Below, piece by piece: positions 30,995-60,540 of a stretch of 64,000 nucleotides of DNA (positions within the stretch are counted from its first letter, which is position 1; the number at the start of each line of letters is the position of its first letter). Source of the stretch: the human T2T-CHM13v2.0 reference genome, Homo sapiens; NCBI RefSeq assembly GCF_009914755.1, contig NC_060934.1, one strand, 5' to 3'. The notes below the pieces were generated by a model. It saw only the letters and a program-made list of their open reading frames with translations, was not told the DNA's origin and did no database searches. Position numbers and translations under genes: made by a program.

Positions 30995-31109
30995 CTAGTT
31001 CTGGGGGCAGAACGGTGAGGCGGTTCCCCTGAATGTGGAGCTCTTTAAGCTGGGTAAGCTCCCCGATTTCCTTAGGCAGCGAGATCAGGTCGTTATCCCT
31101 AAGGCTGAG
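30995..31109 (-). CDS. RSU1: RSU1 coding exon 7 (115 nt): [38 protein letters not shown](G)
   Basis: Acceptor ttttcttctgtttag| and donor |gtaagg. Separated from exon 6 by a 264-nt intron; ends in phase 1. Confidence 0.97.
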
Positions 31110-31373
31110 CTAAACAGAAGAAAACAAGTTGTCAACATATTTACACATTAAAAGGTGCTCCACAGAAACTCTCATCCTCTATGTCCTCTCTTCTACTAAA
31201 GCTCAATCCTTTCCATGTATTTACAAGTGCCGGCGGATAATCAAGAAACACTATCAGGAGTAGTGGTTTATTCCCACAAAACAAACCTTACTCCTGCTCA
31301 AATTGACTTGATTCTACCCCTACAAGGCTGCAGCAGTGAATTGATTTTCTAAGAATTTAGATAAATTACTTAC

Positions 31374-31456
31374 TATCTGCAACTTTGTGAGCTTCCCAAT
31401 ATCTGGCGGCAGGATTTCAAAATCGTTGTCACTTAGATAGAGTGCACGCAGGGTGG
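31374..31456 (-). CDS. RSU1: RSU1 coding exon 6 (83 nt): (T)TLRALYLSDNDFEILPPDIGKLTKLQI
   Basis: Acceptor tttaatttgcag| and donor |gtaagt. Ends in phase 0; LRR pattern. Confidence 0.97.
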
Positions 31457-32231
31457 CTGCAAATTAAACAGCAATATATAAACAGGGTGGCATGGAACAC
31501 AACCATTTGAGGTCTGATCAATACGAGGGAGTCAGCTTTGATTAATAACCCTGGCTTGGTGAAAAGCCTTTGACATACCTAGGGCTCCCAATAATAACAA
31601 GCAGGTCAAACTTAGATTTACTGGCTTATTGTGTAGCTGGTGTGTCCAGGAAAACATCTATATCCAAGAGGAATGACGCAATTAACAACTGTGGGCGCCA
31701 GCATTTTGGGGCACAGAGTTTCAGCACATTTTCAGAAAAGATTGCTATACTTCTCATAGATTACTTTTGATTCACATTTATTTCTCCATTTGCATCCAAA
31801 GTAAAACAAAGAACACTACTGTGCCACTTTTATGGATACCTAGGGCAAAAGGGTTCTTTCAAGAGAATACAGCTCTGTTAAAATAGACCTTTTCCTATGT
31901 AAATAGCACTGTGTTACAAATTAATGGAAGGCTTTCTGGTGATGGAGGCTATAACCACAGCTCATCAGTTCCATAATCTGACTAATTATTACTACGTGTT
32001 TCTACAGCCTTAAGGACAAAAGTAAATGAAGACAAAGAGGCTAAAATAATGACATGAAGTTAACAGAGTAAATCCTAACTTAAGGAGAATATCAGTAGTC
32101 AGAAATTTGTTCATAATTATTACACAATGATAATACGATTCCAACCTACTGAAGGCTAAAATTCTAAAGCATCTGTTTATCTTCAACCAAAAAAGCTGAG
32201 TATAATTAGATACATGTTTTGTTTACCCGTA

Positions 32232-32461
32232 TTTATTTTTTAGAGACAGAGTCTCGCTCTGTCACCTAGGCTGGAGTGCAGTGGGTCACTGCAGCCTCAA
32301 ACTCCTGGCCTCAAGCACTCTTTCTACCTCAGCCTCCCAAGTAGCTAAGATCACAGGCTCATGCTACTATGCCTGGCTACTTTTTAAATTTTTATTTCTA
32401 GAGACAGGGTCTCTCTATGTTGCCCAGGCTGGTCTTGAACTCCTAGCCTCAAGTGATCTTT
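32232..32461 (-). mobile_element. AluJ (partial)
   Basis: Alu consensus, 5'-truncated. Confidence 0.85.
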
Positions 32462-33326
32462 GTAGCTCATACTCCCGAGAACTGCATGTTAATATAACAT
32501 AATAAAAATAGTTGCTCCACTGCCCAAGAAAATATTTTATAGTTGGTTTCATGTGCTTGAGAAAGTCATAGAAAGGTAATGTACGTAAGGTAAAAAATAA
32601 AATTTTAGAGATCAGCTCTGAAAATTCAGATTTTCTGAATGCCACACAAGTTACTATTTGAAGAAATAGAACACTGATTTAAGGGAAGCAAACCTTGTCC
32701 AAAATAGTGCATGAGTTCCCAGAAGAAATCATTTTTTAATTTTCAAAAGCATCTCCAGCAAGAAATTTGTTTGCATATGAAAGAATAAAGTGTGTTCACC
32801 TGTGGCCAATAATTTCTTAATGCCTGTGTACTGGATAAATAGGTCAATAAGAGTACTTTTTAAAAGGCTCAAAATAGGAATACTGGCTGGAAAATTTTAA
32901 AATTGTGTTACTGGTTTATTAATAAATATTTTTAATAAATAATTGGTTGGAATATCCTGGGCAAATATCCTACAAAGAATTAATAGCAACATAGGAAGAT
33001 ACTTTTTTTTTTTTTTTTGGCATGCTATTTAAAAAGAAAGTCAAGTCTCTTAGCTAAATGTGAGGCTTGATCTCATTTAGGTATATAATCTCTCTCAGAA
33101 TGTTAATATGACATTACTAAGTCCACTTCAGCCCAATGGTGTCACATAACGATCTATCAAATGCACATACTGCTGAGCTACGAAGGAATATTCAAAAGGA
33201 GTCTCTAAAGAAAAAATTATCTCTGTCCAATAATTTCTCTTGGAGTTTGGGTCCTGGCAAATAAATTTCCCTCTCAGAACGCAAAGTACAAGGTTGAGGA
33301 GATTTATAGAATTGAAAGTTTCTTAC

Positions 33327-33445
33327 TCAGGTAGAAGAAGTTTCCAGGAAGAGAATTTTCGCTCAAGTTGTTGTACGTCAAGTCCAGAACCTCAAGAGCT
33401 GGCAGGGAGCCGAAGCCTCGTGGCAAAGTGTTCAGCCTGTTCATG
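33327..33445 (-). CDS. RSU1: RSU1 coding exon 5 (119 nt): (G)MNRLNTLPRGFGSLPALEVLDLTYNNLSENSLPGNFFYL(T)
   Basis: Acceptor gtccccctgcaacag| and donor |gtaaga. Frame continues from exon 4 (GG|C) into exon 6 (A|CC). Confidence 0.97.
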
Positions 33446-33570
33446 CTGTTGCAGGGGGACAAAAATCTATGTCATGACACCAAAGACACATTCATACAGA
33501 CTATCAAGGGCACCTCTGTTTCAGACGCTGAAAGTGTAAGACAGTGCCATGATCCTAGAGTCACTTTATA

Positions 33571-33876
33571 CTTTATTTTTATTTTTTATTTTTTTGAGAC
33601 AGGGTCTTACTCTGTTGCCTAGGTTTTAGTGCAGAGGCATGATCTCAGCTCACTGCAGCCTCAACCTCCCCAGGCTCAAGCGATCCTTCCACTTCAGCCT
33701 CCCAAGTAACTGGGACCACAGATGCACGCCACCACGCCCTGCTAATGTTTGTATTTTTTGCAGAGATGGGGTTTTGCCATGTTGCTCAGGCTGGTCTCAA
33801 ACTCCTAAGCTCAAGCAATCCTCTCACCTAGGCCTCCCAGAATGCTGGGATTACAGGCGTGAGCCCCCATGCCCAT
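33571..33876 (-). mobile_element. AluJ
   Basis: Full-length Alu about 125 nt upstream of the exon 5 acceptor. Confidence 0.9.
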
Positions 33877-33879
33877 CCT

Positions 33880-34310
33880 TTTTTTTTTTTAATTAAAAAA
33901 AGCATTTATTTAATATTTACAATGACAAAGATTGTACATACTTATGGTGTACAACATGATACTTCTGATGTATGTATACTACATCATGGAATGGTTTAAA
34001 TCATACTATTTAACACACGCGCTGCCTCATATGCTTGTCATTTTTTTTGTCTTTTGTGGTGAGACTGCTTAAAATTCACTCTCTTAGCAATTTTCAATTA
34101 TACCACATATTGTTATTAACTGCAGTCACCATGATGTACAATCCATCTCTTGAACTTATTTCTCCTAACTAAAATTTCATGTCCTTTGGCTAACATCTCT
34201 GCAATTCCCCTCTCCCTCCAGCCTGTGGTAACCATTTTATTCCCTGTTTCGATGAGGTTTACTTTTTTACATTCCACATATAAGTGAGAAGGTGTGGTAT
34301 GTTGTCCTAT
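33880..34310 (-). mobile_element. L1MA 3' end fragment
   Basis: ttgtacatacttatggtgtacaacatgat…ctctcttagcaattttcaa…ccacatataagtgaga. Confidence 0.75.
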
Positions 34311-34609
34311 TTAGGCTAATAATTTCAGTCAGACAGCTTACATGATCTTGAAACACTTGAAAATTTCTTAGCTGTTATTTTCCTCCAACGGTGAAACTTA
34401 ATCACTGCTTTACACAAAAACTCAAACCATTACAAAATATCTTTCCTTGTAAAGAACAACTTCCCTATGAACGTAGTGATAATATCTCAAAATATACACA
34501 TGAAGCTTTGTAGTTTTCAGGCTTTTGCTTGATTTCATTCCATTTATTCCTTTTTTGGAGGGAAAATCATGTTTTTGTTCTACAACTGCTAACACTGAAA
34601 ATTATCTTC

Positions 34610-34800
34610 AATTAGAATGGTGATGGCCAGGGGCTGGAGGGAGGGGGAATGGAGAGGTGTGGTTTAATGGGCGTAGGATTCAGGTTTGCAAGATGAGAAA
34701 ATTCTGGGGATTGGCTGAACAACAATGTGAATACGCTTAACACCACTGAACTGTCTACTACAAAGACGGTACATTTTGTGTGCATTTTATCACAACCTAA
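34610..34800 (+). mobile_element. L1MB 3' end fragment
   Basis: ccaggggctggagggagggggaatggaga…ttgcaagatgagaaaattctgg…cactgaactgt. Confidence 0.75.
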
Positions 34801-34817
34801 AAAATTTTTAAATCATA

Positions 34818-35255
34818 CAATTGACCCTTGAGCAACATGGGTTTGAACTTCCTGGGTCCAATGAGACATGGATATTTTTCTTCTACCTCTGCCACCCCTG
34901 AGACCGCAAAACCAACCCTCCGCTTCCTCCTCAGCCCACTCAACATGAAGAGGACGAAGACCTTTAAGATGATCCACTTCCACTTAAAGCACAGTAAATG
35001 CACTTTCTTTTCCTTACGACTTTCTTAATAACATTTTCTTTTCTCTAGCTTACTTTATTGTAAGAATGCAGAATAGAATACATGTAACATACAAAATATG
35101 TGTTCATCAACTATTTCTAGTTTTGGTAAGGCTTCCAGCCAACTGTAGGCTATTAGGAATTAAGATTTTTCGGAGTCAAAAGTAATGTGTGGATTTTTGA
35201 CTGCATGAGTCATTGTGTTGCTCCCGCAACCCATGTGTTGCTCAAGGGTCAATTG
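34818..35255 (+). mobile_element. Tigger2a-type non-autonomous DNA transposon (438 bp)
   Basis: Perfect 20-bp TIRs CAATTGACCCTTGAGCAACA / TGTTGCTCAAGGGTCAATTG; TA on the left, TG on the right. Confidence 0.88.
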
Positions 35256-35590
35256 TGTGTGAGTGTGTGTGTGGGGTGTGTGCTGTGTGTGTGTGGTATT
35301 GTGTGTGATGTTATGTGTATGTGTATCTGGGTGTTTCGTGTGGTGTGTGAGGGGTGGGGTGTGGTGTGTGAAGGACGTGGGGGGCTGTGTGGGGGCGGGT
35401 ATGTGTGTGGTGTGGGGTAGGTATGAGTGTGGTGTGGTGTGTGTATAGGGTGTGTTTGGGGGTGTGGTGGTGTGTGTGTACGCAGTGTGTGTGTGGTGTG
35501 TGTGTGGGTGTGTTTGTACACGGTATGTGTGTGTGCTGTGGGTGTGGTGCGTGTGGGTATGTGTGGGTGTGCGTGTGTGTGTGTGGGCGT
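35256..35590 (+). repeat. Degenerate (GT)n/(GGT)n low-complexity tract
   Basis: About 335 bp of GT-rich sequence with several G3-G5 runs, abutting the Tigger right TIR. Confidence 0.93.
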
Positions 35591-36919
35591 GTCTCCAGTG
35601 AAGTCTAAGGGAATTTTTTTCTACACTATCTTTTATCCTTTCTTCAAGCCCCTTATTTTTCTTAACGCAGTTCCCTTTGAGCATACTTAAAAGCCAATTT
35701 TTAAAAAAAAAATTTAATAAAAGTTGACAGATACTGAAAGGTGGAAGGGACTGTGACAATAAAAATCATTCTAGCCATCGATCCTTCTCCTAACACATTC
35801 AGCTCCATCCAGCCCTACCAAGAGGGCCTCACCAGAAACAGCTGACAGCAGAGGGGGCAACCAAAAGGGAAACGCGGGTTCCCCCTGTCAGGCAGAAAAC
35901 TTCCCAGACAGACTACACCCAGCAAAACTACCTCCACGACTATCTACTGCCACGACAGCAAGAACAAACATTCTCCATGAAGTCACAATTTGTGAAGCAC
36001 ATTATGGCAAGGACTTCGCTTGTTCACTAAAACTACCTTGCAATACAGGTAAGATGGAGCTTGTCATTAATGCTATGTTGAGATGAAAAAACAGCCTAAG
36101 AGAGGGTGAGGAGCCAAGACTTCAGAAGTGACTGATGAAGGCGACATGTGTCTGGAAACACCCCATACCGCACGGAGGCCAAAGCTGCTCCGGACCCTTG
36201 GGCTCTGATACAAGGATTCTGAGAAGAATTGCAAGTCAAAGGAAGGACAGCAGAGAAGACCACACTAGGTGCTTCTGTCTTTAAACGCTGCTTTCGGTTA
36301 TCTCTTTTTGAAAACTGCTGATTCCTTAACATTTTTCTCTGCAAATAAATACACTTTTGCAATATTAGGTAGAGGAAATCCACGGTTAGACAGGCTTAGA
36401 GGGAAGAGGCATCTCACCTGAGAGAGAGCTCCCACTCAATCTTCAGCCCAGAGCAAGCCTGGAGCCCCTCCACCTCCTGGTGGCAAGAATCTACTTAATT
36501 GCAGATTCCTTTTTCCTTTGAGTGACAAACCAATACCCACAACATTTAAGGAACACAGCAGAGTCCCATGTGCCGCTGACAGCAGTAAGTAACAGTGGTA
36601 GGCACACCACCCTGGCGGGCAGAAAGAAGTCCTTAAACAAATGCTAAAACTTCAGAAGAATTGCTAGCAACAGCCCCAGCTACAAAGCGGCCAAGGAACT
36701 GCAGAGACTTCTGGCCACCTCTCCGGACACCAGTCCAGGTGGATGGTGACATGGTGGGTTCTCTCTCTGCAGAATGAAGGATGGAACATGCTGGCTGTCC
36801 CCCCTCCCTCCAGCAGGTGCTAACATCCATCTCCATCCATCCACATTTTGACACATAGGAATTCCATGCTCAGGGCCCCGCTCTGACACTGCTAGCAATC
36901 AAGGTTTCCATGAGAGGCT

Positions 36920-37160
36920 ACAGTGGCGGTAGGAAAAGTATGGAGCTTTAAGGTAGGAGACAGCTAGGTGAGGAGACCGGCTCCAGCACTTGCTAGCTGC
37001 GTGACCTTCACCAAGTTACTCAGCTTCTCTGAGACCCAGTTTCCTCAACTATAAAATGAGGCTGACAACACCTTCAGGGCAGGATCACTGAGAGGATAAG
37101 AGAGAAAATATCCGAAGCACCCAACACCCAATCCATGGCTCACACGTGGCTTCTCAGGGA
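36920..37160 (+). mobile_element. MIR
   Basis: …ggctccagcacttgctagctgcgtgacctt…ctctgagacccagtttcctcaactataaaatgagg. Confidence 0.78.
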
Positions 37161-37673
37161 ATGAGAGCTGTTGCTAGAATTATTTTTCAAAAGATTTGAG
37201 AGAAAATTTTGATTTAGCCCTAAGCGAGCAAGCTCACCTCATGACAAGCCACTCTGGATAGTCTCAACTATCAAGTGTGGTTTTCTATTTGTGCCACACT
37301 TGGTTAATCTCAGGTGACCTCAGGTGTTGAAACATAAAGCTTCGCAGGGCTCAGCTATGCCAAGTGGTATCAATTCTTTTGTTTGCATGGGAAGATTTTT
37401 CAAATGCGTGTTGGAAGTGGGCAAATGCCTGCATATGATGGAGAAGTTGATAAAACCAGGGGGTTTCAGGCTATTTCAGCATCTTTTTTCCTTGTCTTCT
37501 AAAGCCCCAGAAAGGTCTGTACTAATGCCTCCTTTTCAGAGCAGTTTCTTCTCCGCAGGTTGTCCTGAGCACCTCCAGCTTCAAAGAAACCTTCTTGTCT
37601 AAAGGCACTAATTTTTCTCACCTCCACAGTGACCTACTCACACTTATCAAAAATAAAAATTTAAAAAAATCCA

Positions 37674-38012
<339 letters not shown>

Positions 38013-38682
38013 TTAATAAAAACTTCTATGTGTTTATGAGACAAGCTCTAGCAACAAACGAGGTCAAACGTTATTCCCGAACAGTTGGGCACGGTGGTCC
38101 TGCAGTGAAGTTACCCTAGAAATAATCATCAACATGGATAATTGTTGAAGCCACATCAACCTATGTGGCTTCACACTTTTTGGAAAATAACTCTATGAAA
38201 TAAACCGCATTTAAGGAATTGAGAACAGAACTAAACTTTCTTTTACTTATTCAGGTGGCCTAAAATTCTCTCATGTCTTACAATCATCAGAATAAACTGT
38301 AAATACTATAAAAACTTTGAAAGCAAATTCTGATGGATCACACATACAAGTGGCTTCCCATCTCCACTTTGTGATCTCCTGTGTGTATGCTTTTCACCCT
38401 GGCTCCTTAGAATAAGGAGTCCTCCCTATAACTTGCCTCACTGTGTGAGTACAATTCTTTATGCCATTTGAGGACAGAGTATCCTTTAGTGAAACCCATC
38501 TTAGCTCCTTTCTCAAAGAACTGGGAGTTTTGTTCAAACTTTGACAACTCCGTCTATGTAGCTATGTAATTAAATACAAAAAGCTTTACACAATCAGTAC
38601 AGCACCGACAGCCAAAAATGCAAACAACTCCAAAGAGAACAAGAAGGCAACTAACATGCATTCATTGAAAAGGAAAAGTTTA

Positions 38683-39018
<336 letters not shown>

Positions 39019-39389
39019 TCAAACCAAAATGTTATTAGGAAAGTCAAAAAAGAACAAAATTTGAGCTTATTATCTTCTTCCCAAACCTGTCTCCATCTGT
39101 TGTATTTTTCAGCTGCCCAACACAGAAATGAAGGTATCATTCCATCCCATCAGTTACTGTCTGTCAACGTTACCGCCTGTATATTTTTCATATAAAATCC
39201 CCCCCACCTCCACTGTCACTGTCCTAGTTCACCTGGGACATGAAGCTCGTCTTCTTATTGGTCTCCTAACCTCTAGTTTACCTCCCTCCACCCTCTTCTC
39301 CATACTCTTTCATACGGAAATATGACCATATCTCCTATCTGCTACTCTGCTATGCAAATTTCTCAAGGGTCAGTATAAAATTGGAGCTC

Positions 39390-39694
39390 GTTTATTTATT
39401 TTTGTATGTATTTTTGAGATGGAGTCTCACTCTGTCACCTAGGCTGGAGTGCAGTGGTGCGATCTCAGTTCACTGAAACCTCTGCCTCCTGGGTTCAAAC
39501 GATTCTCCTGCCTCAGCCTCCCAGGTAGAGTAGCTGCGATCACAGGCACGTGCCACCACACTTAATTTTTGTATATTTAGTAGAGACAAGGTTTCGCCAC
39601 GTTGACCAGGCTGTTCTCGAACTCCTGGCCTCAGATGACCTGCCAGCCTCAGCCTCTCAAACTTCTGGAACTATAGCTATGAGCCACCACGCCC
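39390..39694 (-). mobile_element. AluS (within an L2 remnant at about 38990-39890)
   Basis: Full-length Alu; L2 3' end …tgcctggtacatggtaagga… follows. Confidence 0.88.
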
Positions 39695-40030
39695 GAGAGG
39701 AGCTGCTTTATTTAGCACAGAGTGCTTTTCTTAGCACTTTTTACTTCCTGTCATTATTATAAACATTTATTTGTTTATAGTTGGTTTCTCCAACTGTAAT
39801 GGAAGCTCCATCAGGGCTGGATGGCCAGCAGCTAGAACAATGCCTGGTACATGGTAAGGAACTTGGTAAATCCTCATTCACTGAACAACAGACATCCAGG
39901 ATTCCCTGTCTAGCCTGACCTCTGACCTGACAGCCGCCCGCCTCACACTTTATACTCAACAGTGCCAAAAAACTGACAATTCCCAGGCCCCAGGCAGGCA
40001 GTGCTGTGAGCGTTTAAATATGCCATTCTC

Positions 40031-40340
<310 letters not shown>

Positions 40341-41189
40341 TCACTCCATCTGAGATGCCTTCCTTCAACTTGTAAGTCTGAGAAATTCTCACGCATCAAG
40401 TCTCGGCTCCTGTGCTCCCTGCTGTGTTTGTGCTCCTGAAGATCTCATCTGTGGACTAAAGTGCTCCCCGGTCTTGCTGTTCCCCCTGTTGGTCCACAAC
40501 CGCCAGCATATCTGTGACCTCATTGGTCTGTTCCTGTTTATAACCAGCCTTGCCCCAATAGGTAAGGTCAGGGACCATAACCTTCACCTTGGCTCCCCGG
40601 TACTAGGAAGATTCCTGACATAGAATAGTCACTTACATAGTCATGGAATCAATGAAAACGTAAATAAGACAATTATGATGATAACAATAGCTAACTAATA
40701 CTAGGTACTGCTCAGTATGTGCCAAGCACTGTTCCTAGTGATTGAGATTTTATATATATATATATAAAATAGATATAATGTGTACATATATTTCATTTAA
40801 TAAATGAACAAATTAACAGTAAGAATATACATCTATATGTAGTTTTAGCTTCTTTCTCACATACAAATTAAAGATCAGGATAGAATAGCCTGTAAAACCA
40901 AGATATAAATGGAGCATCTTTTCATTTCTGCTTTGCCAGATGGGTATACAGGCTCCAAATTTGTAGGGAGAAAAAAAAAAAAACCATCTCATCTCAAGCG
41001 ATGTTCCTCCCTCCTTTTAACTTCACTTTCCCTCAGACATAAGAATAAAGGCTGCCCATGGATCTCATAAAGTTGGTCCCTAAGCCCAAGTGAACTTCAA
41101 AATAATGTGTCTGACCAAATTCCTTGTGGGAGCAATAAACTAAAAATCACTCCATGAATGAGATTTTTTTTCATGACTGCTCCCTATTA

Positions 41190-41478
<289 letters not shown>

Positions 41479-41671
41479 CCTGGGAAATACCTGGCCAGCA
41501 TCTATTGCCACTCCACGTCAATCACTAACTTAACTAGAGCATTTAGTGGCTACAAATTTAATGAACATATGACTTTGCACAGAGACTGCAGCATGAGTGG
41601 GCAGTTTCATCTGATAGCTGCGCCAATGAAGATGAAATTCTGATGCCGCAGTTCCGGTTGGGGTCTATGGA

Positions 41672-42085
41672 TCTATTTGTCTGTTCTCCCATTGCTATAA
41701 AGGAATGCCTGAGGCTGGGTAACTTACAAGAAAAGAGGTTTAACCGACTCGTGGTTCTACCGGCTGTATAGGAAGCGTGGCAGCAGCTGCTTGTGGGGAA
41801 GTCTCAGGGAGCTTTTACTCATGGTGGAAGGCAATGCAGGAGTATGCTTATTACATGGCAGGAGCAAGACAGCACAAGGGGGGAGGTGCTACGCACTTTT
41901 AAACAACCAGGTCTCACAGTAACTCACTCACTATCACAAGGACAGTACCAAGAGGGGATAGTGCTAAACCATTCAGGAGAGCTCCGCCCCCAGGATCCAA
42001 TCACCTCCCACCAGGCCCCACCTCCAACACTGGGGATTACAATTCCACATGAGATTTGCTGGGGACACAGACCCAGACCATAACA
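41672..42085 (-). mobile_element. MSTA/B-like MaLR solo LTR
   Basis: …cattgctataaaggaatgcctgaggctgggtaa…ggggattacaattccacatgagattt…cagaccataaca. Confidence 0.85.
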
Positions 42086-42845
42086 ATGGGGTCTGAAGGA
42101 GCCTTCAGACCCAGAACCATCTTCCCAGCTTGGCCGCTAACCTCAGGGGTGACCAGGAGCCAGGCCCTTAGCCCCTTTGAAAAGGCTTGGCTTCCTCTGT
42201 ATACAATGAAAGCACTAAAACCTGCCCTCCGTACCTCACAAATGTTGAGAGGGTCAAGTGCTGCAAAGCAATACACAAAAATAGATTATCATTATTATTA
42301 TTTACTGCTCCCTGGTTCTGCAACCTCAGCTGAATCAAAACTCCTCTCTTCACCTTTGCATAAAGAAAGACAGGACTGTCACCTCTCAGCTAAAGAGAAG
42401 AATTGCATAAATGAATGAAGCATCATTAGGGAAAATATTCTTCCCTCCACGGCACGAAGGTGCTTTGTAAACTATTCCAATTTAACACAGAGAGGAAAAA
42501 GAAATCAGCCATATTACCACTTGTCCGCCAGTTCATGCTATGCAAATAAGTCCCTTCTCGGTCAGCAGAACTGAGATAAAATTTTACTGGACAGAAAATA
42601 CAATAAAAATTTAACTTCCTTATTGCGCCAACAATTAGCCTCTCAATTAGCTCTCAAATATGCACTAATGTAGGCCACTGAAAGAATATATTAAAACAAT
42701 AAAATTTTTTTAAGACCCAAAACATAAAAAGAAATTAGAAATCCATTTCTGTGCAATAATATAAAAGGAATCCCTCCCCTGGCCTTACCCGGCATGCCCC
42801 TTCCACTCTCTTCCTCTCCATCCTTTCCGCTCCACTGATACTCAC

Positions 42846-42966
42846 CCAAGGTTCAGGTGTTTGAGTTTCTGAAGGCTACTGATCTGTGTGGGCAGCTCCT
42901 CGATTTGGTTATTAAAAAAGTTGAGCACCTCCAAATTCTTCAGTTCTGCGATGTTCGGTGGCACCA
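42846..42966 (-). CDS. RSU1: RSU1 coding exon 4 (121 nt): (M)VPPNIAELKNLEVLNFFNNQIEELPTQISSLQKLKHLNL(G)
   Basis: C-terminal part of ORF 42842..43066. Acceptor ttttgtttccatag| and donor |gtgagt. LRR consensus LxxLxLxxN; recognised RSU1 sequence. Confidence 0.97.
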
Positions 42967-43157
42967 CTATGGAAACAAAAATGCTGAGTGTGAATCTGGG
43001 AATGGAACTCCTAGCAAGGGATGGCAGCGGCACATTTTGTTTTTCTTTCAAAGCAAAGAAAGACATAACTTCAAAAGGGCCATCGAATTCACCTACCGGT
43101 CTTATTTATTTTTTACAGGTTTTTCATAAGCAGTCACTCACTTCTGAGTGGCTGCTT

Positions 43158-47956: not shown

Positions 47957-47964
47957 CCCGATGG

Positions 47965-51100: not shown

Positions 51101-51313
51101 AAAAAAAAAAAAAAAAACAAGAAAAAAAAACTTCAATCCATCAATGGAAAAAAGCAGTCTCAGTGTTATAAAAGGACTGATCTAGGCTCTTTTATATGAG
51201 TACATGCCTTTACTATGTATAATATATATGGATGTATATCTACACATAAGCCTCGATTATTAACATTACAAGGTAGATAGTCAGCAAGTCACATTCTATC
51301 TTGCACTCTTTTA

Positions 51314-51680
<367 letters not shown>

Positions 51681-52790
51681 GGAATTAATCCATCAAATCC
51701 ATCAAGAGGCCACAAGTGGACTGCTTCTCTTCCTACCAGACCTTATGTTTAGGGTCACTGCATGAGGAGGGCAGGAAGGGGAGGAAAAGGAAGAGGCCCA
51801 GGGCTAGGAAAATCCACCAAATCCACATGGGAGCTTTGATCATTCCCTTCGAAATAACCCAACTATGGCTTTTAACCTTAGGAATTCTCCCGTTCTTCGA
51901 CTGGAAGGAGTAAGGATCCAGAGCCACAGGAACGCTTCGTCCATGGAGCTCCTACACTGACCTAACGGGACGTCAAGTGCACACACAGATCACTTGCAGA
52001 GGCAGCAGGGGACACGGCGGAGCAGCCACTTGGAAGCTGTACAGAAAGCTCTGTCGCCTCCTCATTCTGGTCACTTAATCACTTTACACCTGCCTCCTCC
52101 ACGTAATACAGAGTGGGGGTTCAACAAATTCACTCTTTTCTCTTTCACTTCCTGCTGAAGTTATTATATAGGTGTTGTTCTTGATGGTCCCACAGGCTGT
52201 GGGGTGCCTTGTATTTCTTTCCACACAGTGCTGGTTCAGTTGGATGAAAAGGAGGGCTTCACAGAGAAAGATGAGCATTCATCTCAACTTTCTGAAGGAT
52301 AAGCCAAATTCAGAGAAAGGGGTAGGAACATCAGTTTTTTTAAAAAAATCAGGTGACTAGAACAAAGAATAGATAGGCAGGGGAAAAAAGCTAAAGAACC
52401 AGCAAAAAATTAGACAAAAGAGGGTTCAGACTGAAAACAGCAAAACGCAAGGTCAATGAGTTTGTTACTGGTTATCAATTGTATCTGAGTGGTTTTGGTC
52501 TATGAGGCTGACTGATGAACAGAAAGAAAAATGGAAATGGGAAAGGTATTCCGTTAAAAAAAAAAAAAACTGCATATGCCCATATGCCCACACACGTTCT
52601 GTTCAACCCTGGGAGCTACAGGATTGCAAATTCTTATTTAACAAAATGTAAATTTAAGCAGATTAATAAGATGGCACTTATCAATATTTTTTAAAAAGTC
52701 ATCAAGAATGAGTTCTGTGATGCATTAAAAATCATCTAAAGTTTTATACAAATCTCCAAGGAGCATCTCCTTTAAGAAATAGCATCACTA

Positions 52791-53078
<288 letters not shown>

Positions 53079-53273
53079 CTAGTGTTATCTTCATCCGATT
53101 CTGGAGTTTCTAAATCTGAGCTGCATGGACCTCTAAAGAATTCATGGATGAACACAATGGGATCCACAAGCCTCTGCTGGAATTACAACCATCACGTGCA
53201 CTTCTCTACAGATCAGGGTTGTAGTTTTCACTCTATTATTTAAAAAGATCAGTGACTTAAGAAAAGTTAAGAA

Positions 53274-53520
53274 GGCTGGGCACAGGGGCTCACAGTGGCC
53301 TGTATTTCTGGTACTTTTGGAGGCCAAGGCAGGAGGACCACTTGAGCCCAGGAGTTTGAGTCCAGCCTGGGCAAATTAGCCAGGCGTGGTGGTGCACATC
53401 TATCTAGGAGGCTTGCTTGAGCCCAGGAGTTTCAGGTTACAGTGAGCTAGGATTGTGCCACTGTACTCCAACCTGGGTGATAAAAACACTATCTCTAAAA
53501 AATAAAAACATAAAAAAAGA
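53274..53520 (+). mobile_element. AluJ with deletions
   Basis: Diverged Alu. Confidence 0.85.
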
Positions 53521-55296
53521 GAAGAGATGCTCTACAAGAATGTATGTACCTAAGTATTGCACCTCTTAGTGTATCTCCTCTATCATTCTGCACACATACT
53601 CACATGTACACACACATCAAGTGATATAGGAGAGAGGGCATCAACTGAAAATGTACGTATAATATTTTGCTATTAAATCAATTCTGTTTGATAGACATTC
53701 TATCATCAATAGCAATAGAAACCTTTTTCAGGATCAGCCCCGCACATGGGCTAATTATGAGTTGGAAAGTGACAGGCTTACACTCCCCCGTCTTATTTTC
53801 TCCACAGCCTGCCACCGTTCTGAAGTTCTCACGATTGGGGTGGTTCCATTTAAAAATATATTGTGGAGGAATTAGCACGTTAGCTGGCTTCCGCTTAGCA
53901 CAAAACAGGACCTCTAGAAAAAGGATTCTAGAACAGGTACATTTTGGTTGGTGGGGCTGACAACAAAAGGAATGGGGGTGGGGGGTGGCCACAGTCTACA
54001 AGCTGAGGACAGATTAGATGCCACCGGCAGGACACGTCTTCGACTTCATTCGCTGGCCTTGGCTGCACTGGTTCTGGGTTCCTGGGTCAACAGACCCTCC
54101 CATAGCATGATCTCAGGTGCTCACTCACTACAGCCAAAAAATCGCAACACATGCCCAACTGCCAGTGCTTTTTTATGGTAACCTGACTACCGGTACCATC
54201 AGATAGATATTGTTTAATTAATAGCTGTTAGACTCAAAGATACTATGCATATTTTTTTAACTCTCATCTTTTAATGATGGCAGAGAAGCAAACTGATAAA
54301 TGTGCAGTAATTTAAAAAAATAAGTTATTGATCAAAGCCTCTGTATTATAAACACATTTACACTCTGTTAAAATGCGAACAGCAAGTTGTTTTGATATTG
54401 TCACAAGATAAATTCATGACACAGAGACCATTTATTTTACATATTCCCCCCTCATGGTTTAATTTCATACAAGCCATGCACAAGAACTTTTGCATAAAGC
54501 ATGACAAATAATCTATGAAGGAGGGAATAACTACAGACTTAAGAACAGCAAGGTCTGAGAAGAGTGGTGAAGGTCGTCCTCAGGAATTCAGACAGTTAAT
54601 TCTTCTCAATCATCCCAGCAATCTATTATGTCTGCATAAAAAGGTTTCAATGTATTATGCTTTTTAAAAACTGCTAAATTTTCTTCATTATAATTGGATC
54701 TACAAATTTTAAGAATGCAGTATTTTCATGTGAAATATGCTGCTTAATTTGTTTATAATATGACTTATGGTAGATAATCAATGTATACATCTGCATAAAA
54801 TTTAAAAGTATTAAATTCTATGTACTTAGAATATTATCTTTGATAAATAAATTATTGAAACCACCAAAGAAGGTATCTTAGTATTTCTTGTTTGTTATAA
54901 TTCTAAATTCATACATAAGCTGTAACTAATAGGAAATAGTGTATATTAAAAAAAAAAAACCCACATTTTGCCATAAAACTTAGGTTTACTACCTGCCTGG
55001 CCATTTCCGATGCATTAAATGATGAGATATGGTCACAGTGAAGACCTGAAATTGTAGGCAAAACTGCCAATACCTCAGGAAAAGGTTTTACATGGCAGTT
55101 AAAAGTATAAAACTAAACAATTACATTCAGAGACCCACACTTTTGAAAAGTTTTACATAAATGTCGGCTCCTCAATGTTTGCACAGAGCAAAAAGATATC
55201 CTTGGTTATTTCTTGCACAAAATGACGAATGTCTAATCCTCAACACACATGGGTCACAAAATTTAAAAAAAAAAAAAAAAACTACTGCCGTATTTA

Positions 55297-55436
55297 AGCC
55301 CATCATTCCTTGGCTCTATGATTGTAAAGATGAGATGGCCATCATTTACTGGACATAAGGTCATATTTTTATTTTTTTTTAATTTTTTTTTTGAGATAGG
55401 GTCTTGCCCTGTCACCCAGGCTGGAGTGCAGTAGTA
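55297..55436. repeat. Displaced direct copy of 56402-56538 (unique flank plus Alu 3' end)
   Basis: agcccatcattccttggctctatg…gagtgcagtagta is present at both positions, near-identical apart from the T tract. Confidence 0.93.
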
Positions 55437-56473
55437 GCTTGCAATGTTTACGTGTGGGTTTTGCTGTTGGAATAAAATTTTTTTAAAACTTAAGGAAAAC
55501 TTCACTTAAAAACGTAATGCCCAGAGCTTGTTTTATCACTGCTACAGAATGCAATTCATTTCCTGTTGTACATTCATTTCATATTCTCCCCAACACAATG
55601 GAATTGAGCAGTATACGAATCAGCATAAATATGCACAAAATACACATTTTCCTGATTTTTACAGTTATTTTTGAATTAAAATCTGGTTACATAAATACTT
55701 CAAACTTTCTTCCACAGATTAAAAAAAAAAACTCAAATATGCCCAATACAAAATACTATGGAAAGCAGTATAATTCTTTCAACGTAAGGATATTGGAGGA
55801 AGAGAAATGTTTCTAATTTGAGAAAGTAGCCATAATAAACACTAAAAAATGATACGTGAAACTGAATATTTTCATGGTAGGAGAACAAAAAACACAGCAT
55901 ACCTCCTTCTATAAGGATTTACCTTAAATGTGGTAAAAACTGCACTGTGTAAGCAGCAATAGCAACATGCCCTGTGGTGCAGGGCCGGAGAGCCTGCACA
56001 AAATTTATTCTCACAACAAAGGTGGTTTCTAATCTTTAGGTACAAAACCTGGAGGAGACATATGTGTCTCAACAGTGACCTCTAGTGGACAAGTCTTAAA
56101 ATGGTTGTCCCCAAAAGAAACTCCTTTTTAAAAACAAAAAACAAGTAGGAAAGCATTTACAAAGCTCACACTTCCAAAACACCATAAAACCTAGGGATTG
56201 GATTAAGGAGCAGACTAAAAAAGACTCAGCTGACAGTGGCTTGAAAGGGAGGGTAACCACAGAGGCCAGGGGCAGGAAGGAAAAGCAAAGAAACACAGGA
56301 AGATGACCTTCGGCATTATTGCTGCCTTCCCACGCATCTGAGCGGTCATGAAAACAGTTTCCCTGGCTGCGAGTCCTTTGTGTGCCTGAGTAACACATCA
56401 CAGCCCATCATTCCTTGGCTCTATGATTGTAAAGATGAGATGGCCATCATTTATTGGACATAAGGTCATATAC

Positions 56474-56666
56474 CTTTTTTTTTTTTTTTTTTTTGAGATA
56501 GGGTCTTGCCCTGTCACCCAGGCTGGAGTGCAGTAGTACAATCACAGCTCACTGCAGCCTCAAACTCCTGGGTTGAAGTGATCCTCACACTACAGCCTCC
56601 ACAGTAGCTGAGATGCCTGGCTCATGTTTTTTTTAAGAGATGGGGTCTTGCTATGTTGCCCAGGCT
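56474..56666 (-). mobile_element. AluJ/FRAM-like partial Alu
   Basis: Alu right-arm sequence with deletions. Confidence 0.82.
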
Positions 56667-58721
56667 GAAGGTCATGTATCTTTAGAGCATCACGCTCTAC
56701 CATGTTTGAAATGAGCACACAACGAGTAAGAAACAGAAGTCTGTGGCAGCCACATCTACTCAAGTCCCTATACCAGTTAATCCCAAAGAAACCATCTGAT
56801 CCCAATGTTCCCCACTTTCTCTCCAGCCAGCAGTTTCCTCTCTGCCCTTCCCTGTCATTCACATACCTCCTGGGAGCAATGAACACTCGGTTTATACAGG
56901 TAATTACTGCGAAGCCACTAAGGGCCCAGTCACAGGCATTCAGGAAGAATATGAAATGATCCATGCTTCCACAAAAGCTGACCATCTATTTGGAGAGAGA
57001 AAAAAAACACAAAGGAAGAGAAGGACAGGGAATGCCATGCTAGAGTTAAAGAGTCTACATGCAAGAGAGTTTGGGGAGGAAAGGCTTCAGATGGGCCAGA
57101 CCAGCCAGGGGGCCCCCAGGGGAGGATGGGGAGAGGCTGGTAGAGAGGAGGAGGGAGGAGGAGAGGCAGGCAAGAGTAGATCCTGGGCCCAGAGGCAGGG
57201 CTACGGGGGGACAGAAGATGATCCATCTTCCTAGAGCAGCAAATGGAGAGGAGAGGCTGGCATGGGATGTGGGGCAGATTAGGGCAGTTTCTGAAAGGCA
57301 GAGAGGGGCAGTGAGTGCATGAGAGTAAGCCAGCCTTCTGCCAGGTGCGTACTGCATCACAGGCAGGTGCTCAAAGAAAGCATTATTTCCGAAAGGATCT
57401 TCAATCTGAAACTCTTCCCATTGGGCCAGGATGGCTTTGCATTCTGACTTTGCCAATGACTTTGTTGCATTCAAAGTTAGTACCTGCCCATTCATAGCAA
57501 AAAGGCAGAAGAAAAAAATTCACTTGCAACTATTCTTCCCGTCTCCTTAAACACATCATGCATATATACATATCTAGGAAAGTTGCTACAGACAGATTAA
57601 GTCCCCCGCTGACTTCAAAAACCCATCAACGCTGCCCCAAGCTCCCAGGTTTAAATTCAAATAGGGGCACCATAATAGTCTTGGAGCATTAACAGCAATT
57701 AGCTTGACAATACATTAATATTTTTATGAACTGCAGTATTTAAAAGTTCAGGAATTTCTGCTCCCAGATTCTTGAGGAATTTCAGAATCACAGATCCCAC
57801 TTTCAGCTTCCTTGTCGCCTCACTTTTACTGCCCTGGGTAGACATGTCAAGGCCAAAACCACTGGCAAGAAAAGGCAAGTCAACCACGTGCCACACTGTT
57901 TCAATAACCCTGTAGATCTTAAGTCAGTGGAGTCAACAGTGTCCCCAAATCAATGTCCCAGTTTGAGTAAACCATTCATTCCTTCCATGAGTACATAAGT
58001 GGAAATGTCAGAGAACGGTGTAATTGGCATACTAAGAGAAAAACATGAATACTTTTGCAAGATAAAAGCAGTGCCGGGTGAGGGGGTGGGGGAGTTATCT
58101 TTTGAGTCCCTGTGGTTTTAATGTGGCGTTGTCAGCTGGTCCCTATTAAAAACAACAGAAAGTGAAAGACACTGATTACCATAAAAAGTGACAGCAGGGT
58201 GTGCCTAGCCACTTACACTTAATGCATATTTATATTTCCATCAAATGGACATATTTACTATAAACACTTGAAAAACCATAGCAAAGTCATTCATTTAAAT
58301 GCCAGAAAAATAGTAAAGGATGCTAATTTGACCTTACTGAAACAGATCGGGTGTCAGTGACGCTACTCAGGATGGCTTGAAACAGAATTTACCAAGACTA
58401 TTAATTAGAGTTTACTGGATTAGGTCAAGAGTGTCTCAAATGGAGTGAAGAAAAGGAAAAAAAAACTGGCAAGGCAGAAATATAAAGTTTGGATTCTTTC
58501 ACAGTCAGTCTCCTGAATGGCCAACACAATGTAACTCCACATATAAATATGCTCCTCTAAATTAACCTAATATTATAATGCCTGGAGGAAGAAACTGATC
58601 CATTGACTCCTGAGATTTCTATCTTTGTGAAGATGTAAAAAGAAATAAACTACAGTGATCTGAAAGATGTTTTTAAAGAAGAGATCAATGAATGATATAA
58701 TAGAAATAAAGGTTTTGCTTT

Positions 58722-58998
58722 CTTCCTGTTGGAGACAGGGTCTACCTCTGTCGTCCAGGCTGCAGAGCAGGGTCGTCATCATGGCTCACTGCAACCTCGA
58801 CCTACTGGGCTCAGCCTCTTCAGTAGCTGGGACCACAGGTGCTGGACCCACTATGTCCGGTTAATTTTTTGATTTTTGGTAGAGATGGGGGCCTCAGTAT
58901 GCTGCCTTGGCTGGTCTCAAACTCCTAGGCTCAAGCAATCCTCCTACCTCAGCCTTCCTAAGTGCTGGGATTACAGGCATCGGTCACTGATCCTGGCC
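58722..58998 (-). mobile_element. AluJ
   Basis: Diverged Alu; TSD gttttgctttctt. Confidence 0.87.
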
Positions 58999-60159
58999 AG
59001 TTTTGCTTTCTTGTGTAAACTGGTTTGCACAAGATAAGCAAAACAAGGTATCATTGTTGTAACAATGGTAAGCTTAGCAATTAAGAAATACTTTACTAAA
59101 CTACACAACAGAACATGTCAGTTATTACTGCTCACAAATCTTGGGGGATTTAGGAATCACGTGGTCCACGCTTCAAAACAGACCATGAATCCCTTCTGAA
59201 CTGAGAATCTGGTCTCTGTGGACCACGGGACCATTTCCCAGAAAAACAATGGAACCGGCAATAAATTACCTGTTACAACAATGACCACACATGACTTGTA
59301 GGTCTCACTTTTGGCTTCTGTGGCCACCACTACTTAAGTGTGACAACTGTGCCGTCACTCTGCCTTTGCCTTACAAATATACGCTTTGGCTAACAACGAC
59401 TAATCCACTTGTTTCTTGCACATGAGGGGACCCTGCTGCCACTCTTAATTCTCAATAATCAACAGCTCTGTGACATCGCTTCAAGCTGTATATAATGCAC
59501 ATACACACATAAATTCATGACACAAATCCCTCAACATGACATTCTGCTCAATTTCACTGGACTCGGAAAGCTCCTTCACAAATTCTTGCCACATGATTAG
59601 AAAATCATTCAAGTCTGCAAGAAAAATGGCAAGCAAAAAGAACTGAGTCATTAGGAATGGGAAAGGAGCGTGGGTCCCTGTCATTAAAATCTTTAAAGCC
59701 ACAGCTCTACGAAGAAAACGGCCCATCATGCACACAAGATAGTCATATAAAAATAGGCATTCATCTATGCTAAGCAGATACGTCTACTGTGGGGCTCTAT
59801 GGATACCCAGCAGAATTTTTCTTTTGGGGAAGCCAGACTCAAAAATTTGAAAAATGCAGATGTAAAGGTATATCATGTATACAATTTTGCATCTTTTCCT
59901 CCATCAAGCAGGGACAGAAAGTGTATTAAACAGTTAAAACTTTCCCTTTCGAGGAGGAAATATAAATGAAAACAAAGAACTTGTTCTAACAATTTCAAGT
60001 TTTCAATGCTTTCAAGTAAGTTTTGCTCATGAAATGCTCACCAATGGTCTGGCAATTCAGGTCAGCATAGCATTTACTATCTCTGAATGGAACCACTTCC
60101 AGAGCAACAATGTCATTTTTTTTCTCTTTGGTTTATAAACATGATAAGAAAGAATCTTC

Positions 60160-60288
60160 AGGCCAGGCGCCACGGTTCATGCCTGTAATCCCAGCCCTTT
60201 GGGAGGCCAAGGCAGGACGATCGCTTGAGCCCAGGAGTTCAAGACCAACCTGGGTAACACGGCAAGACCTTGTCTCAAAAAAAAGAAA
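60160..60288 (+). mobile_element. FLAM-type Alu monomer
   Basis: Single left-arm monomer with A tail; TSD aagaatcttca. Confidence 0.85.
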
Positions 60289-60489
60289 AGAATCTTCAAA
60301 GTAGAGCTAACTACAAAAGGACAAAATACAGGATGACAATATTCTCATCTTAGTGTCACCAAAGTAAACTAAGGTTTCTGCAAATAATCATTCTTCATTA
60401 GTTTCTCCCAAGGAAACAGTAACAGACTCAGCAGTGCCATAGGATTACCTAAATGTCAGAAACTGTAACAAATGAGAAACATCACTTAC

Positions 60490-60540
60490 TTGTTAGCTTG
60501 TTATGGCTGAGGACCAGTTGTGTGATATGGGATAAGGTAA
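60490..60540 (-). CDS. RSU1: RSU1 coding exon 3 (51 nt, phase 1/1): (F)TLSHITQLVLSHNKLT(M)
   Basis: Minus-strand acceptor ctgactgacc-T-rich-tag| (AG at 60542-60541) and donor |gtaagt (60489-60484). Translation matches the first RSU1 LRR and joins the next exon in frame (A|TG = Met). Not in the ORF track because it is too short. Confidence 0.96.

What the first reader, a model, noticed from the sequence alone, without database searches (positions are those of the whole stretch)
30995..60540. An exon 3-7 circle would encode a stop-free, perfectly in-register endless LRR solenoid
Seen in sequence: the exon lengths sum to 51+121+119+83+115 = 489 nt = 163 codons. Exon 7 ends in phase 1 (G) and exon 3 starts in phase 1 (TT), so a back-splice makes GTT (Val) and the frame never meets a stop. 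The 163 aa are exactly seven LRRs (23+23+23+25+23+23+23): VTLSHITQLVLSHNKLTMVPPNI / AELKNLEVLNFFNNQIEELPTQI / SSLQKLKHLNLGMNRLNTLPRGF / GSLPALEVLDLTYNNLSENSLPGNF / FYLTTLRALYLSDNDFEILPPDI / [23 protein letters not shown] / [23 protein letters not shown]. The junction ...LPPEL-V-TLSHITQLVLSHN keeps the LRR spacing exactly. The exon 3/4 junction creates an in-frame AUG in strong Kozak context (ACA AUG G), and exon 5 has a second AUG and a GGACU (DRACH) motif. Established: stop-free circles can undergo rolling-circle translation; the RSU1 LRRs bind PINCH/LIMS. I recall a circRSU1 being reported, mainly as a miRNA sponge, but its exon content needs verifying. Inference: this circle could make a cap-less, multivalent poly-LRR protein, and the matching linear product (exon 2 joined to exon 8) would stay in frame with all LRRs removed.
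Basis: partly seen in the sequence, partly recalled or inferred. Interest (0 to 1): 0.85.

Follow-up and report, generated by a model that had tools for sequence, protein, structure and literature searches.

The report
circRSU1: known circle, stop-free frame
These five exons make the already published circular RNA circRSU1; its endless reading frame is real but is a common by-product of circles made of coding exons, and nothing yet shows that it is translated.

Summary
The sequence facts hold. RSU1 exons 3-7 are 51+121+119+83+115 = 489 nt. The back-splice codon is G|TT (Val). The coding frame has no stop round the circle, and the 163 codons are seven whole LRRs in register.

The circle is not new. 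It is circRSU1 / hsa_circ_0006577: 489 nt, exons 3-7, junction confirmed by Sanger sequencing, RNase R-resistant, cytoplasmic. A 2026 paper noted its ORF "lacking a stop codon", measured very low IRES activity and judged it non-coding.

A stop-free frame is ordinary. On chr10, 43.8% of blocks of internal coding exons are multiples of 3. In one data set, 14% of human circRNAs had host-frame rolling-circle ORFs. The LRR register needs only introns 2 and 7 to share one repeat position and phase. Some pair among six boundaries does so by chance about 20% of the time.

One inference is wrong. Joining exon 2 to exon 8 makes T|GA, a stop, leaving 36 codons.

Rolling-circle translation into a poly-LRR has not been tested directly. 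I found no junction peptide, footprint or tagged-circle experiment. It remains a low-probability hypothesis.

The parts
60490..60540 (-). RSU1 exon 3 (51 nt). Its 3' splice site (acceptor, AG before 60540) is the back-splice acceptor. Its first two bases, TT, finish the junction codon.
   Evidence: annotation
42846..42966 (-). RSU1 exon 4 (121 nt). Its first two bases, TG, complete the in-frame ATG begun by A at 60490. The published hnRNPA1 motif 1 (circle nt 70-75) maps to 42948-42943.
   Evidence: LRR_4 at 29.3 bits against a cut-off of 27
33327..33445 (-). RSU1 exon 5 (119 nt), holding the second in-frame ATG (33444-33442), the one GGACT (33385-33381) and the 25-residue repeat (crystal LRR5).
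31374..31456 (-). RSU1 exon 6 (83 nt).
30995..31109 (-). RSU1 exon 7 (115 nt). Its 5' splice site (donor, GT after 30995) is the back-splice donor. Its last base, G at 30995, starts the junction codon. TTAGGGA at 31102-31096 is the published hnRNPA1 motif 2 (circle nt 382-388).
61366..62120 (.). Two repeat-masked elements of about 300 bp in intron 2 (61366-61666 and 61822-62120), 0.8-1.6 kb upstream of exon 3. They have reverse-complement partners in intron 7 and are candidates for the intron pairing that favours back-splicing.
   Evidence: 10 of 27 blastn matches between the two intron stretches are in inverted orientation
26207..26501 (.). The nearest inverted partner in intron 7, about 4.5 kb downstream of exon 7. 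Further inverted partners lie at 22327-22491, 16610-16923, 11667-11979 and 9703-9899.
   Evidence: 74-80% identity over about 290-310 bp; all within masked repeats

Best explanation
Window 30995-60540 (minus strand) holds the five exons of circRSU1 (hsa_circ_0006577), an abundant, cytoplasmic, 489-nt exonic circular RNA of the RSU1 gene.

Biogenesis (inferred): the exon 7 donor is back-spliced to the exon 3 acceptor. This is helped by the long flanking introns (34.9 and 57.4 kb), which carry inverted interspersed repeats.

The endless frame: the circle consists only of internal coding exons and its length is a multiple of three, so the RSU1 frame closes on itself without a stop.

The circle is therefore LRR2-LRR8 of the solved RSU1 solenoid, in register. 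I read both properties as by-products of gene structure, not as a device for making protein.

Function: the published functions are at the RNA level, namely hnRNPA1 binding and miR-93-5p or miR-345-3p sponging.

Cost to the gene: each circle costs one RSU1 mRNA. The leftover exon 2-exon 8 join has a TGA at the joint. With the exon 8/9 junction 131 nt downstream of that stop codon, this mRNA should be a target of nonsense-mediated decay (inferred from the 50-55 nt rule).
For: - Exon lengths, splice sites, frame and peptide.
- Identity with circRSU1: exons 3-7 of NM_012425, 489 nt, hg19 span 29,546 nt equal to the window span. The junction was Sanger-sequenced in chondrocytes, retinal endothelial cells and HCC cells. 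The RNA is RNase R-resistant and cytoplasmic. The mouse counterpart matches at 431 of the 489 nt.
- RNA-level mechanisms: AGO2 and miR-93-5p, miR-345-3p, hnRNPA1 through two motifs. Motif 2 maps to a TTAGGGA in exon 7.
- Coding judged unlikely by the authors who looked: an ORF without a stop, a low IRES score and a very low bicistronic reporter signal.
- Base rates: 43.8% of internal coding exon blocks on chr10 are multiples of 3. 14% of human circRNAs have a host-frame rolling-circle ORF.
- Exon boundaries in the LRR unit fall at position 1 (phase 1), 18 (1), 12 (2), 4 (1), 9 (0) and 1 (1). There is no periodicity. The chance that some pair of six coincides is 0.20.
- Long introns and inverted repeats.
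- TGA at the exon 2-8 joint.
- No special RNA fold: circular MFE -107.7 kcal/mol against -115.9 +/- 6.3 for 200 dinucleotide shuffles, z = +1.3. Rfam gave 0 matches in the window.
Against: - Translation was never tested directly. The published assay tried one predicted IRES fragment in a linear bicistronic reporter. It used no junction peptide, no Ribo-seq and no tagged circle, and it did not address m6A-driven or short-element initiation. Its data are in supplementary figures that I could not open.
- The circle is abundant, cytoplasmic and induced by oxidative stress. It carries an ATG in a strong context that RefSeq already annotates as a start codon (isoform 2).
- Rolling-circle ORFs were over-represented among circRNAs with mass-spectrometry support.
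- As numbered in the paper, the two hnRNPA1 motifs are 6 and 7 nt. The double-deletion mutant that lost function may therefore also break the frame (my inference). If so, that experiment does not separate RNA from protein function.
- The intron-pairing route is inferred from sequence only.
Confidence: 0.8

Rival explanations
1. Ribosomes start at the exon 3/4 ATG without a cap and run round the circle many times. This makes a continuous LRR solenoid that folds because the joint is in register, and it binds several PINCH1 (LIMS1) molecules.
For: - A stop-free frame, two in-frame ATGs and an in-register joint.
- The PINCH1 surface spans LRR2-LRR9, and the tested contact residues all lie in the circle.
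- RSU1 lacking residues 216-277 still binds PINCH1.
- Natural solenoids with the same 23-residue spacing run much longer. The 398-residue Leptospira protein 4u08 matches the exon 4 peptide in 13 stretches, and 494-585-residue SHOC2 chains also match. Their repeat counts of about 17 and 20 are recalled. Two or three laps are therefore geometrically plausible.
- Precedents: rtEGFR (seen only through a review) and circPSAP, circPFAS and circABHD12.
Against: - The predicted IRES showed very low reporter activity.
- No paper in the library links RSU1 to rolling-circle translation. Seven papers hold both terms; one was checked in passages and the rest only by title. Eight papers hold circRSU1 and 'open reading frame', and the only primary one argues against coding.
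- RSU1 is not mentioned in the main text of the proteome-wide survey (its supplementary list is closed).
- The product lacks both caps that shield the hydrophobic core.
- Rolling-circle products are mostly degraded quickly by the proteasome.
- In a concatemer the next lap occupies the place of LRR9 and the C-cap, next to the PINCH1 C-terminal helix. An 11-residue extension there already disfavours PINCH2 binding. Multivalent binding is therefore uncertain (inference).
Confidence: 0.05
2. Occasional, unproductive translation. A few ribosomes start on the circle and make one lap or less before they drop off or shift frame. Both other frames hold 11 stops per lap. The capless LRR fragments are degraded and have no function of their own.
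For: - General behaviour of circRNA-coded products: low abundance and proteasomal decay.
- A strong-context ATG, cytoplasmic location and a circle no more structured than shuffles.
- The reporter signal was 'very low' rather than reported as absent.
Against: There is no positive datum for this circle. It differs from 'not translated' only in degree.
Confidence: 0.15
3. The phase 1 / phase 1, seven-repeat block is a relic of an LRR cassette that spread by exon shuffling or duplication, so the register is inherited rather than coincidental.
For: Introns 2 and 7 lie at the identical repeat position and phase. Symmetric 1-1 modules are the classic form of shuffled exon sets (established knowledge, recalled). 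The mouse circle matches the human one at 431 of the 489 nt.
Against: The four inner boundaries sit at four other positions in three phases, so there is no periodic exon = repeat pattern. A chance coincidence of some pair has probability 0.20. Intron positions in other animals could not be read with these tools.
Confidence: 0.2

Closest known systems
circRSU1 / hsa_circ_0006577 (PMC7778608, PMC10344963, PMC13088275)
   Same: It is the same molecule: RSU1 exons 3-7, 489 nt, the same genomic span and the same back-splice junction. The absence of a stop codon in its ORF is already in print.
   Different: Nothing in the RNA differs. The published work read the stop-free ORF as 'incomplete'. It did not mention the LRR register or rolling-circle translation in the passages and section I read.
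Rolling-circle ORF circRNAs: circ-EGFR/rtEGFR, circPSAP, circPFAS, circABHD12
   Same: An exonic circle whose length is a multiple of 3, the host frame, no stop and an in-frame ATG.
   Different: Those have junction peptides and/or tagged-reporter ladders. circRSU1 has none, and it has one negative IRES assay. In circRSU1 the repeat unit of the protein fold is in register with the joint, which was not reported for the others in what I read.
RSU1 isoform 2 mRNA (NM_152724.3, exon 2 skipped)
   Same: It uses the same ATG, formed at the exon 3/4 joint, as its annotated start. That gives a 224-residue protein without the N-cap, LRR1 and most of LRR2.
   Different: It is a linear, capped mRNA that ends at the normal stop and keeps LRR9 and the C-cap.
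Solved RSU1-PINCH1 complexes (PDB 7d2s, 7d2t/7d2u, 7lt8/7lt9)
   Same: The circle encodes LRR2-LRR8 of this solenoid, including the 25-residue LRR5 and the mutated PINCH1 contact residues.
   Different: The native protein has an N-cap helix, LRR1, a ninth LRR or beta-strand and a helical C-cap. None of these is in the circle.

Membership tests
Exonic circular RNA made by back-splicing | The circularised block is bounded by a canonical 3' splice site upstream and a 5' splice site downstream | tested here: met
   AG before exon 3 and GT after exon 7; all five exons are AG|..|GT
Exonic circular RNA made by back-splicing | A back-splice junction observed in RNA, with resistance to RNase R and no poly(A) tail | not testable with these tools
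   Published: Sanger-sequenced junction and RNase R resistance in three studies, and failure to prime with oligo(dT) in one
Exonic circular RNA made by back-splicing | Long flanking introns with inverted repeats able to pair | tested here: met
   Introns 2 and 7 are 34,889 and 57,414 nt. 10 of 27 blastn matches between 60541-64000 and 1-30994 are inverted, about 300 bp, 74-80% identical and in masked repeats. Pairing itself was not shown.
Rolling-circle-translated circRNA (rcORF) | Length a multiple of 3 with a frame free of stops round the joint | tested here: met
   489 nt; 0 stops in the coding frame over two laps; joint codon GTT
Rolling-circle-translated circRNA (rcORF) | An in-frame start codon | tested here: met
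   ATG at circle nt 51-53 (A at -3, G at +4) and at nt 174-176. The first is RefSeq's start for isoform 2.
Rolling-circle-translated circRNA (rcORF) | Cap-independent initiation activity (IRES, IRES-like element or m6A) | not testable with these tools
   Published: low IRES prediction and a very low bicistronic reporter signal. DRACH count 16 against 10.9 +/- 2.8 says nothing about methylation.
Rolling-circle-translated circRNA (rcORF) | The product observed: junction peptide, junction footprints or a concatemer ladder | not testable with these tools
   None found. RSU1 is absent from the main text of the proteome survey. Supplementary tables are closed.
LRR solenoid, SDS22-like class as assigned to RSU1 by its crystallographers | Tandem 23-residue repeats with the LxxLxLxxN core | tested here: met
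   Seven units of 23/23/23/25/23/23/23. Pfam LRR_4 or LRR_1 is above cut-off for 2 of 3 exon peptides, and the third is below cut-off. RSU1 PDB chains match at E about 1e-24.
LRR solenoid, SDS22-like class as assigned to RSU1 by its crystallographers | N- and C-terminal caps shielding the hydrophobic core | tested here: not met
   The caps lie in residues 1-36 and 200-277, that is exons 2, 8 and 9, outside the circle

The most novel reading that the evidence does not exclude
Under stress, when cap-dependent initiation falls and circRSU1 rises, ribosomes start at the isoform-2 ATG and translate the circle round and round. Because the joint keeps the LRR register, the product folds as one continuous solenoid instead of misfolding like other rolling-circle concatemers. 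It sequesters PINCH1 at several sites. Part of the phenotypes now credited to the RNA would then come from this protein. The double-motif deletion that abolished function may also break the frame.
Probability: 0.05. Interest if true: 0.75.

Novelty: already known. Interest (0 to 1): 0.22.

Why it matters
As it stands this is a re-discovery from raw sequence of a well-studied circular RNA. Three small points are useful.

1. The published reading of the circRSU1 ORF as 'incomplete, lacking a stop codon' misses that, on a circle, this means an endless frame. The coding question was therefore closed on a weak test.

2. Because the joint is in register with the protein repeat, circRSU1 is a clean test case for whether a rolling-circle product can ever fold.

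3. Making the circle leaves an exon 2-exon 8 RNA with a stop exactly at the joint. Circle output therefore trades directly against RSU1 protein. That fits the opposite trends of circRSU1 and linear RSU1 mRNA reported under IL-1beta and H2O2.

Tried and rejected
- Rfam scan of the whole window at gathering thresholds: 0 matches.
- Circular RNA fold of the 489-nt circle: no more stable than 200 dinucleotide shuffles (z = +1.3). The regions around the two ATGs and the joint are about half unpaired (0.52, 0.45, 0.57), so this argues neither way.
- DRACH count: not clearly above chance.
- A broad search for circRNA translation papers that also mention RSU1 (at least 4 of 6 terms): 127 papers, 20 listed, and none of the 20 held RSU1. 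The design did not force RSU1, so it was uninformative. It was replaced.
- RSU1P3 as a contiguous stand-in query for an orthologue search: its longest RSU1-like ORF pieces are 82 and 145 residues. That is too short to reach 277-residue proteins under the length rule, so the search for homologous proteins was not used at all.
- Intron positions and phases in other vertebrates could not be read, because the only animal genome available here is this human reference. The only cross-species datum is the reported alignment with mouse circRsu1, 431 of the 489 nt identical.
- No structure prediction of a two- or three-lap concatemer was run, because it needs a joined sequence that the tools do not accept. 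No fold search and no Atlas search were made.
- Supplementary files were not opened. They may bear on the claim, notably Figure S3 of PMC13088275 (ORF and IRES data) and Supplementary Data 4 of PMC9242994 (the list of 990 junctions with spectra).
- The review on RSU1 isoforms gave no exon content for the 29-kDa form, so I did not equate it with any transcript.


Full report
WHAT IS IN THE SEQUENCE.
On the minus strand the window holds RSU1 exons 3-7 of NM_012425.4, a 9-exon transcript. Their lengths are 51, 121, 119, 83 and 115 nt, and each is flanked by AG and GT. They sum to 489 nt. Exon 7 ends with a single G of a split codon and exon 3 begins with TT, so a back-splice gives GTT (Val). Over two laps the RSU1 frame has 0 stops and the other two frames have 22 each.

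The ATG at the exon 3/4 joint has A at -3 and G at +4. A second in-frame ATG and the one GGACT lie in exon 5.

WHAT IT IS.
The circle is circRSU1, circBase hsa_circ_0006577.
- PMC7778608 (passages): made from exons 3-7 of NM_012425, hg19 chr10:16794537-16824083. The junction was sequenced. The RNA is RNase R-resistant, lacks a poly(A) tail, is cytoplasmic and is bound by AGO2. It sponges miR-93-5p. It rises with IL-1beta or H2O2 while linear RSU1 mRNA falls. The mouse counterpart is identical at 431 of the 489 nt.
- PMC10344963 (passages): 489 bp, the same coordinates, cytoplasmic, a miR-345-3p sponge.
- PMC13088275 (passages; section 2.3 in full): exons 3-7, 489 nt, junction sequenced in hepatocellular carcinoma cells, acting through hnRNPA1 by two motifs.

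The hg19 span of 29,546 nt equals window 30995-60540. Motif 2 of that paper (circle nt 382-388) maps to TTAGGGA at 31102-31096, which confirms that the numbering starts at exon 3. Sixty-two papers in the library name circRSU1, of which 30 were listed. Six name the circBase id.

HOW UNUSUAL IS THE ENDLESS FRAME?
It is not unusual. Any circle made only of internal coding exons keeps the host frame open if its length is a multiple of 3 and the joint codon is not a stop.
- In the 712 'select' mRNAs of chr10, 28,219 of 64,365 contiguous blocks of wholly coding internal exons (43.8%) are multiples of 3. For five-exon blocks the figure is 1,801 of 4,229.
- Within RSU1 exons 3-7, 6 of 15 blocks qualify.
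- PMC9242994 (passages) reports that 14% of human circRNAs in its full-length set carry a host-frame rolling-circle ORF. It also reports that about half of the circRNA-coded peptides detected by mass spectrometry came from circRNAs with such ORFs, and that the products tested were mostly short-lived through the proteasome.

THE LRR REGISTER.
This is the more particular point.

| Boundary | Position in unit | Phase |
|---|---|---|
| exon 2/3 | 1 | 1 |
| exon 3/4 | 18 | 1 |
| exon 4/5 | 12 | 2 |
| exon 5/6 | 4 | 1 |
| exon 6/7 | 9 | 0 |
| exon 7/8 | 1 | 1 |

 Only the two outer boundaries coincide, and there is no exon-equals-repeat pattern. With 69 position-by-phase states, some pair among six boundaries coincides by chance with probability 0.20. 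A named pair does so with probability 1/69, or 1/23 given equal phase. Of the 6 blocks that are multiples of three, only exons 3-7 make a whole number of repeats. So the register is real and mildly improbable, and I could not tell relic from coincidence.

The crystal structures count an N-cap helix, then LRR1 (25 residues, before residue 37), then LRR2-LRR8. After these come a ninth LRR (PMC7909951) or a ninth beta-strand (PMC8141872), and a helical C-cap. The circle therefore encodes LRR2-LRR8.

Exon peptides hit Pfam LRR families. Two of three are above the curated cut-off and one is below it. The exon 4 peptide matches RSU1 chains 7d2s, 7d2t/7d2u and 7lt8/7lt9 at E about 1e-24.

THE START CODON.
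The ATG formed at the exon 3/4 joint is not a new find. It is the annotated start of RefSeq isoform 2 (NM_152724.3, exon 2 skipped), whose coding part begins at the last base of exon 3. It is the first ATG of that mRNA and opens a 224-residue frame.

THE EXON 2-EXON 8 PRODUCT.
Exon 2 ends ...CTC T before GTGAGT, and exon 8 begins GA AAC after AG. The frame is kept arithmetically, but the joint codon is TGA, so the ORF stops after 36 codons. None of the 3 RSU1 mRNAs annotated in this assembly joins exon 2 to exon 8. With the exon 8/9 junction 131 nt downstream of that stop codon, such an RNA should be an NMD target (inference from the 50-55 nt rule). Each circle therefore costs one productive RSU1 mRNA. 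That fits the opposite trends of circRSU1 and linear RSU1 mRNA reported.

HOW THE CIRCLE IS PROBABLY MADE.
Introns 2 and 7 are 34,889 and 57,414 nt. Two masked repeats of about 300 bp, 0.8-1.6 kb upstream of exon 3 (61366-61666 and 61822-62120), have reverse-complement partners in intron 7. The nearest is at 26207-26501, and others lie at 22327-22491, 16610-16923, 11667-11979 and 9703-9899. Of 27 blastn matches between the two intron stretches, 10 are inverted, at 74-80% identity. This is the usual setting for back-splicing driven by intron pairing. The pairing itself is inferred. Only 3.4 kb of intron 2 lies in the window.

IS IT TRANSLATED?
The only test in print is in PMC13088275. [quoted passage not shown] The predicted IRES scored low, and a bicistronic luciferase reporter gave very low activity against a HIF1A IRES control. 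The authors concluded that coding was unlikely.

That test is weak for the question asked here. It used one predicted fragment in a linear reporter, with no junction peptide, footprint or tagged circle. The data are in a supplementary figure I could not see.

- Neither that paper nor PMC7778608 mentions an RSU1 protein blot in its main text.
- Seven papers hold both 'rsu1' and 'rolling circle'. In the one I checked the two are unrelated (rolling-circle amplification); the other six I judged by title only.
- Eight papers hold circRSU1 and 'open reading frame'. The only primary study among them is PMC13088275.
The double deletion that lost function may also shift the frame (my inference).

WOULD THE PRODUCT WORK?
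For:
- The PINCH1 surface runs from LRR2 to LRR9 with 22 contact residues.
- F71, D115, Y140, R165 and D166 are all in the circle.
- RSU1 without residues 216-277 still binds PINCH1.
- Much longer natural solenoids share the same repeat spacing.

Against:
- Both caps, which shield the core of LRR1-2 and LRR8-9, are missing.
- Deleting the C-cap already disorders LRR9.
- In a concatemer the next lap takes the place of LRR9 and the C-cap beside the PINCH1 C-terminal helix. A short C-terminal extension there disfavours PINCH2 binding.
- There is no stop codon, so release depends on drop-off or frameshift. Each other frame has 11 stops per lap. A review seen in passages reports a frameshift-mediated stop for natural rolling translation.
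- Concatemer products are generally degraded.

I could not model a two-lap protein, because the tools do not take joined sequences.

VERDICT.
The object is already known, including the lack of a stop in its ORF. The endless frame is a common by-product of exon arithmetic. The exon 2-8 inference is refuted. The poly-LRR protein remains an untested idea with one weak published result against it. I rate it about 5% likely as a functional product, and about 15% likely as low-level, unproductive translation. What seems not to be in print, within the searches, is the exact LRR register of the joint and the TGA at the exon 2-8 joint.

Noticed in passing
window 60490 and 42965-42966 (minus strand): The ATG created by the exon 3/4 joint is the annotated start codon of RefSeq isoform 2 (NM_152724.3, exon 2 skipped). 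It is the first ATG of that mRNA and opens a 224-residue frame lacking the N-cap, LRR1 and most of LRR2.
   Followed up: yes
window 30900-31550; G000 chr10:43614061-43614717 and chr10:45987498-45988154: Exons 6-7 together with intron 6 are duplicated at 94% identity over all 651 bases at the RSU1P1 and RSU1P2 loci. These are therefore unprocessed (segmental) copies, and they could attract mis-mapped exon 6/7 reads.
   Followed up: partly
L004 (G000 chr10:52168300-52169500), RSU1P3: This is a processed pseudogene. Exons 6 and 7 are adjacent, and the RSU1-like ORF pieces are 82 and 145 residues. It keeps the linear exon 2/3 and 7/8 joints, so it derives from the mRNA and not from the circle.
   Followed up: partly
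chr10 annotation, XM_054366524.1 (outside the window for exons 8-9): The model transcript that skips the 133-nt exon 8 shifts the frame and stops exactly 133 nt later in exon 9. Its coding length is again 834 nt, with a different C-terminus (arithmetic). Whether this is the '29 kDa RSU1-X1' isoform of the review was not established.
   Followed up: no
window 42943-42948 and 31096-31102 (minus strand): The published hnRNPA1 motifs 1 and 2 of circRSU1 map to CAGAAC in exon 4 and TTAGGGA in exon 7. As numbered they are 6 and 7 nt, so a double deletion of 13 nt would also break the endless frame. This could confound the published loss-of-function result.
   Followed up: partly
window 1-16660 (minus strand): The annotated lncRNA LOC124902384 lies inside RSU1 intron 7 on the same strand. 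It overlaps three of the inverted-repeat partners (9703-9899, 11667-11979, 16610-16923). Its relation to circle formation is unknown.
   Followed up: no
window 42848-42964 (minus strand): The 39-residue exon 4 peptide scores higher against the Leptospira LRR protein LIC11098 (4u08, 13 matched stretches, E 2.9e-31) than against RSU1's own PDB chains (E about 1e-24). This happens because the many repeats of the bacterial protein add up, and it shows how generic this 23-residue LRR is.
   Followed up: no
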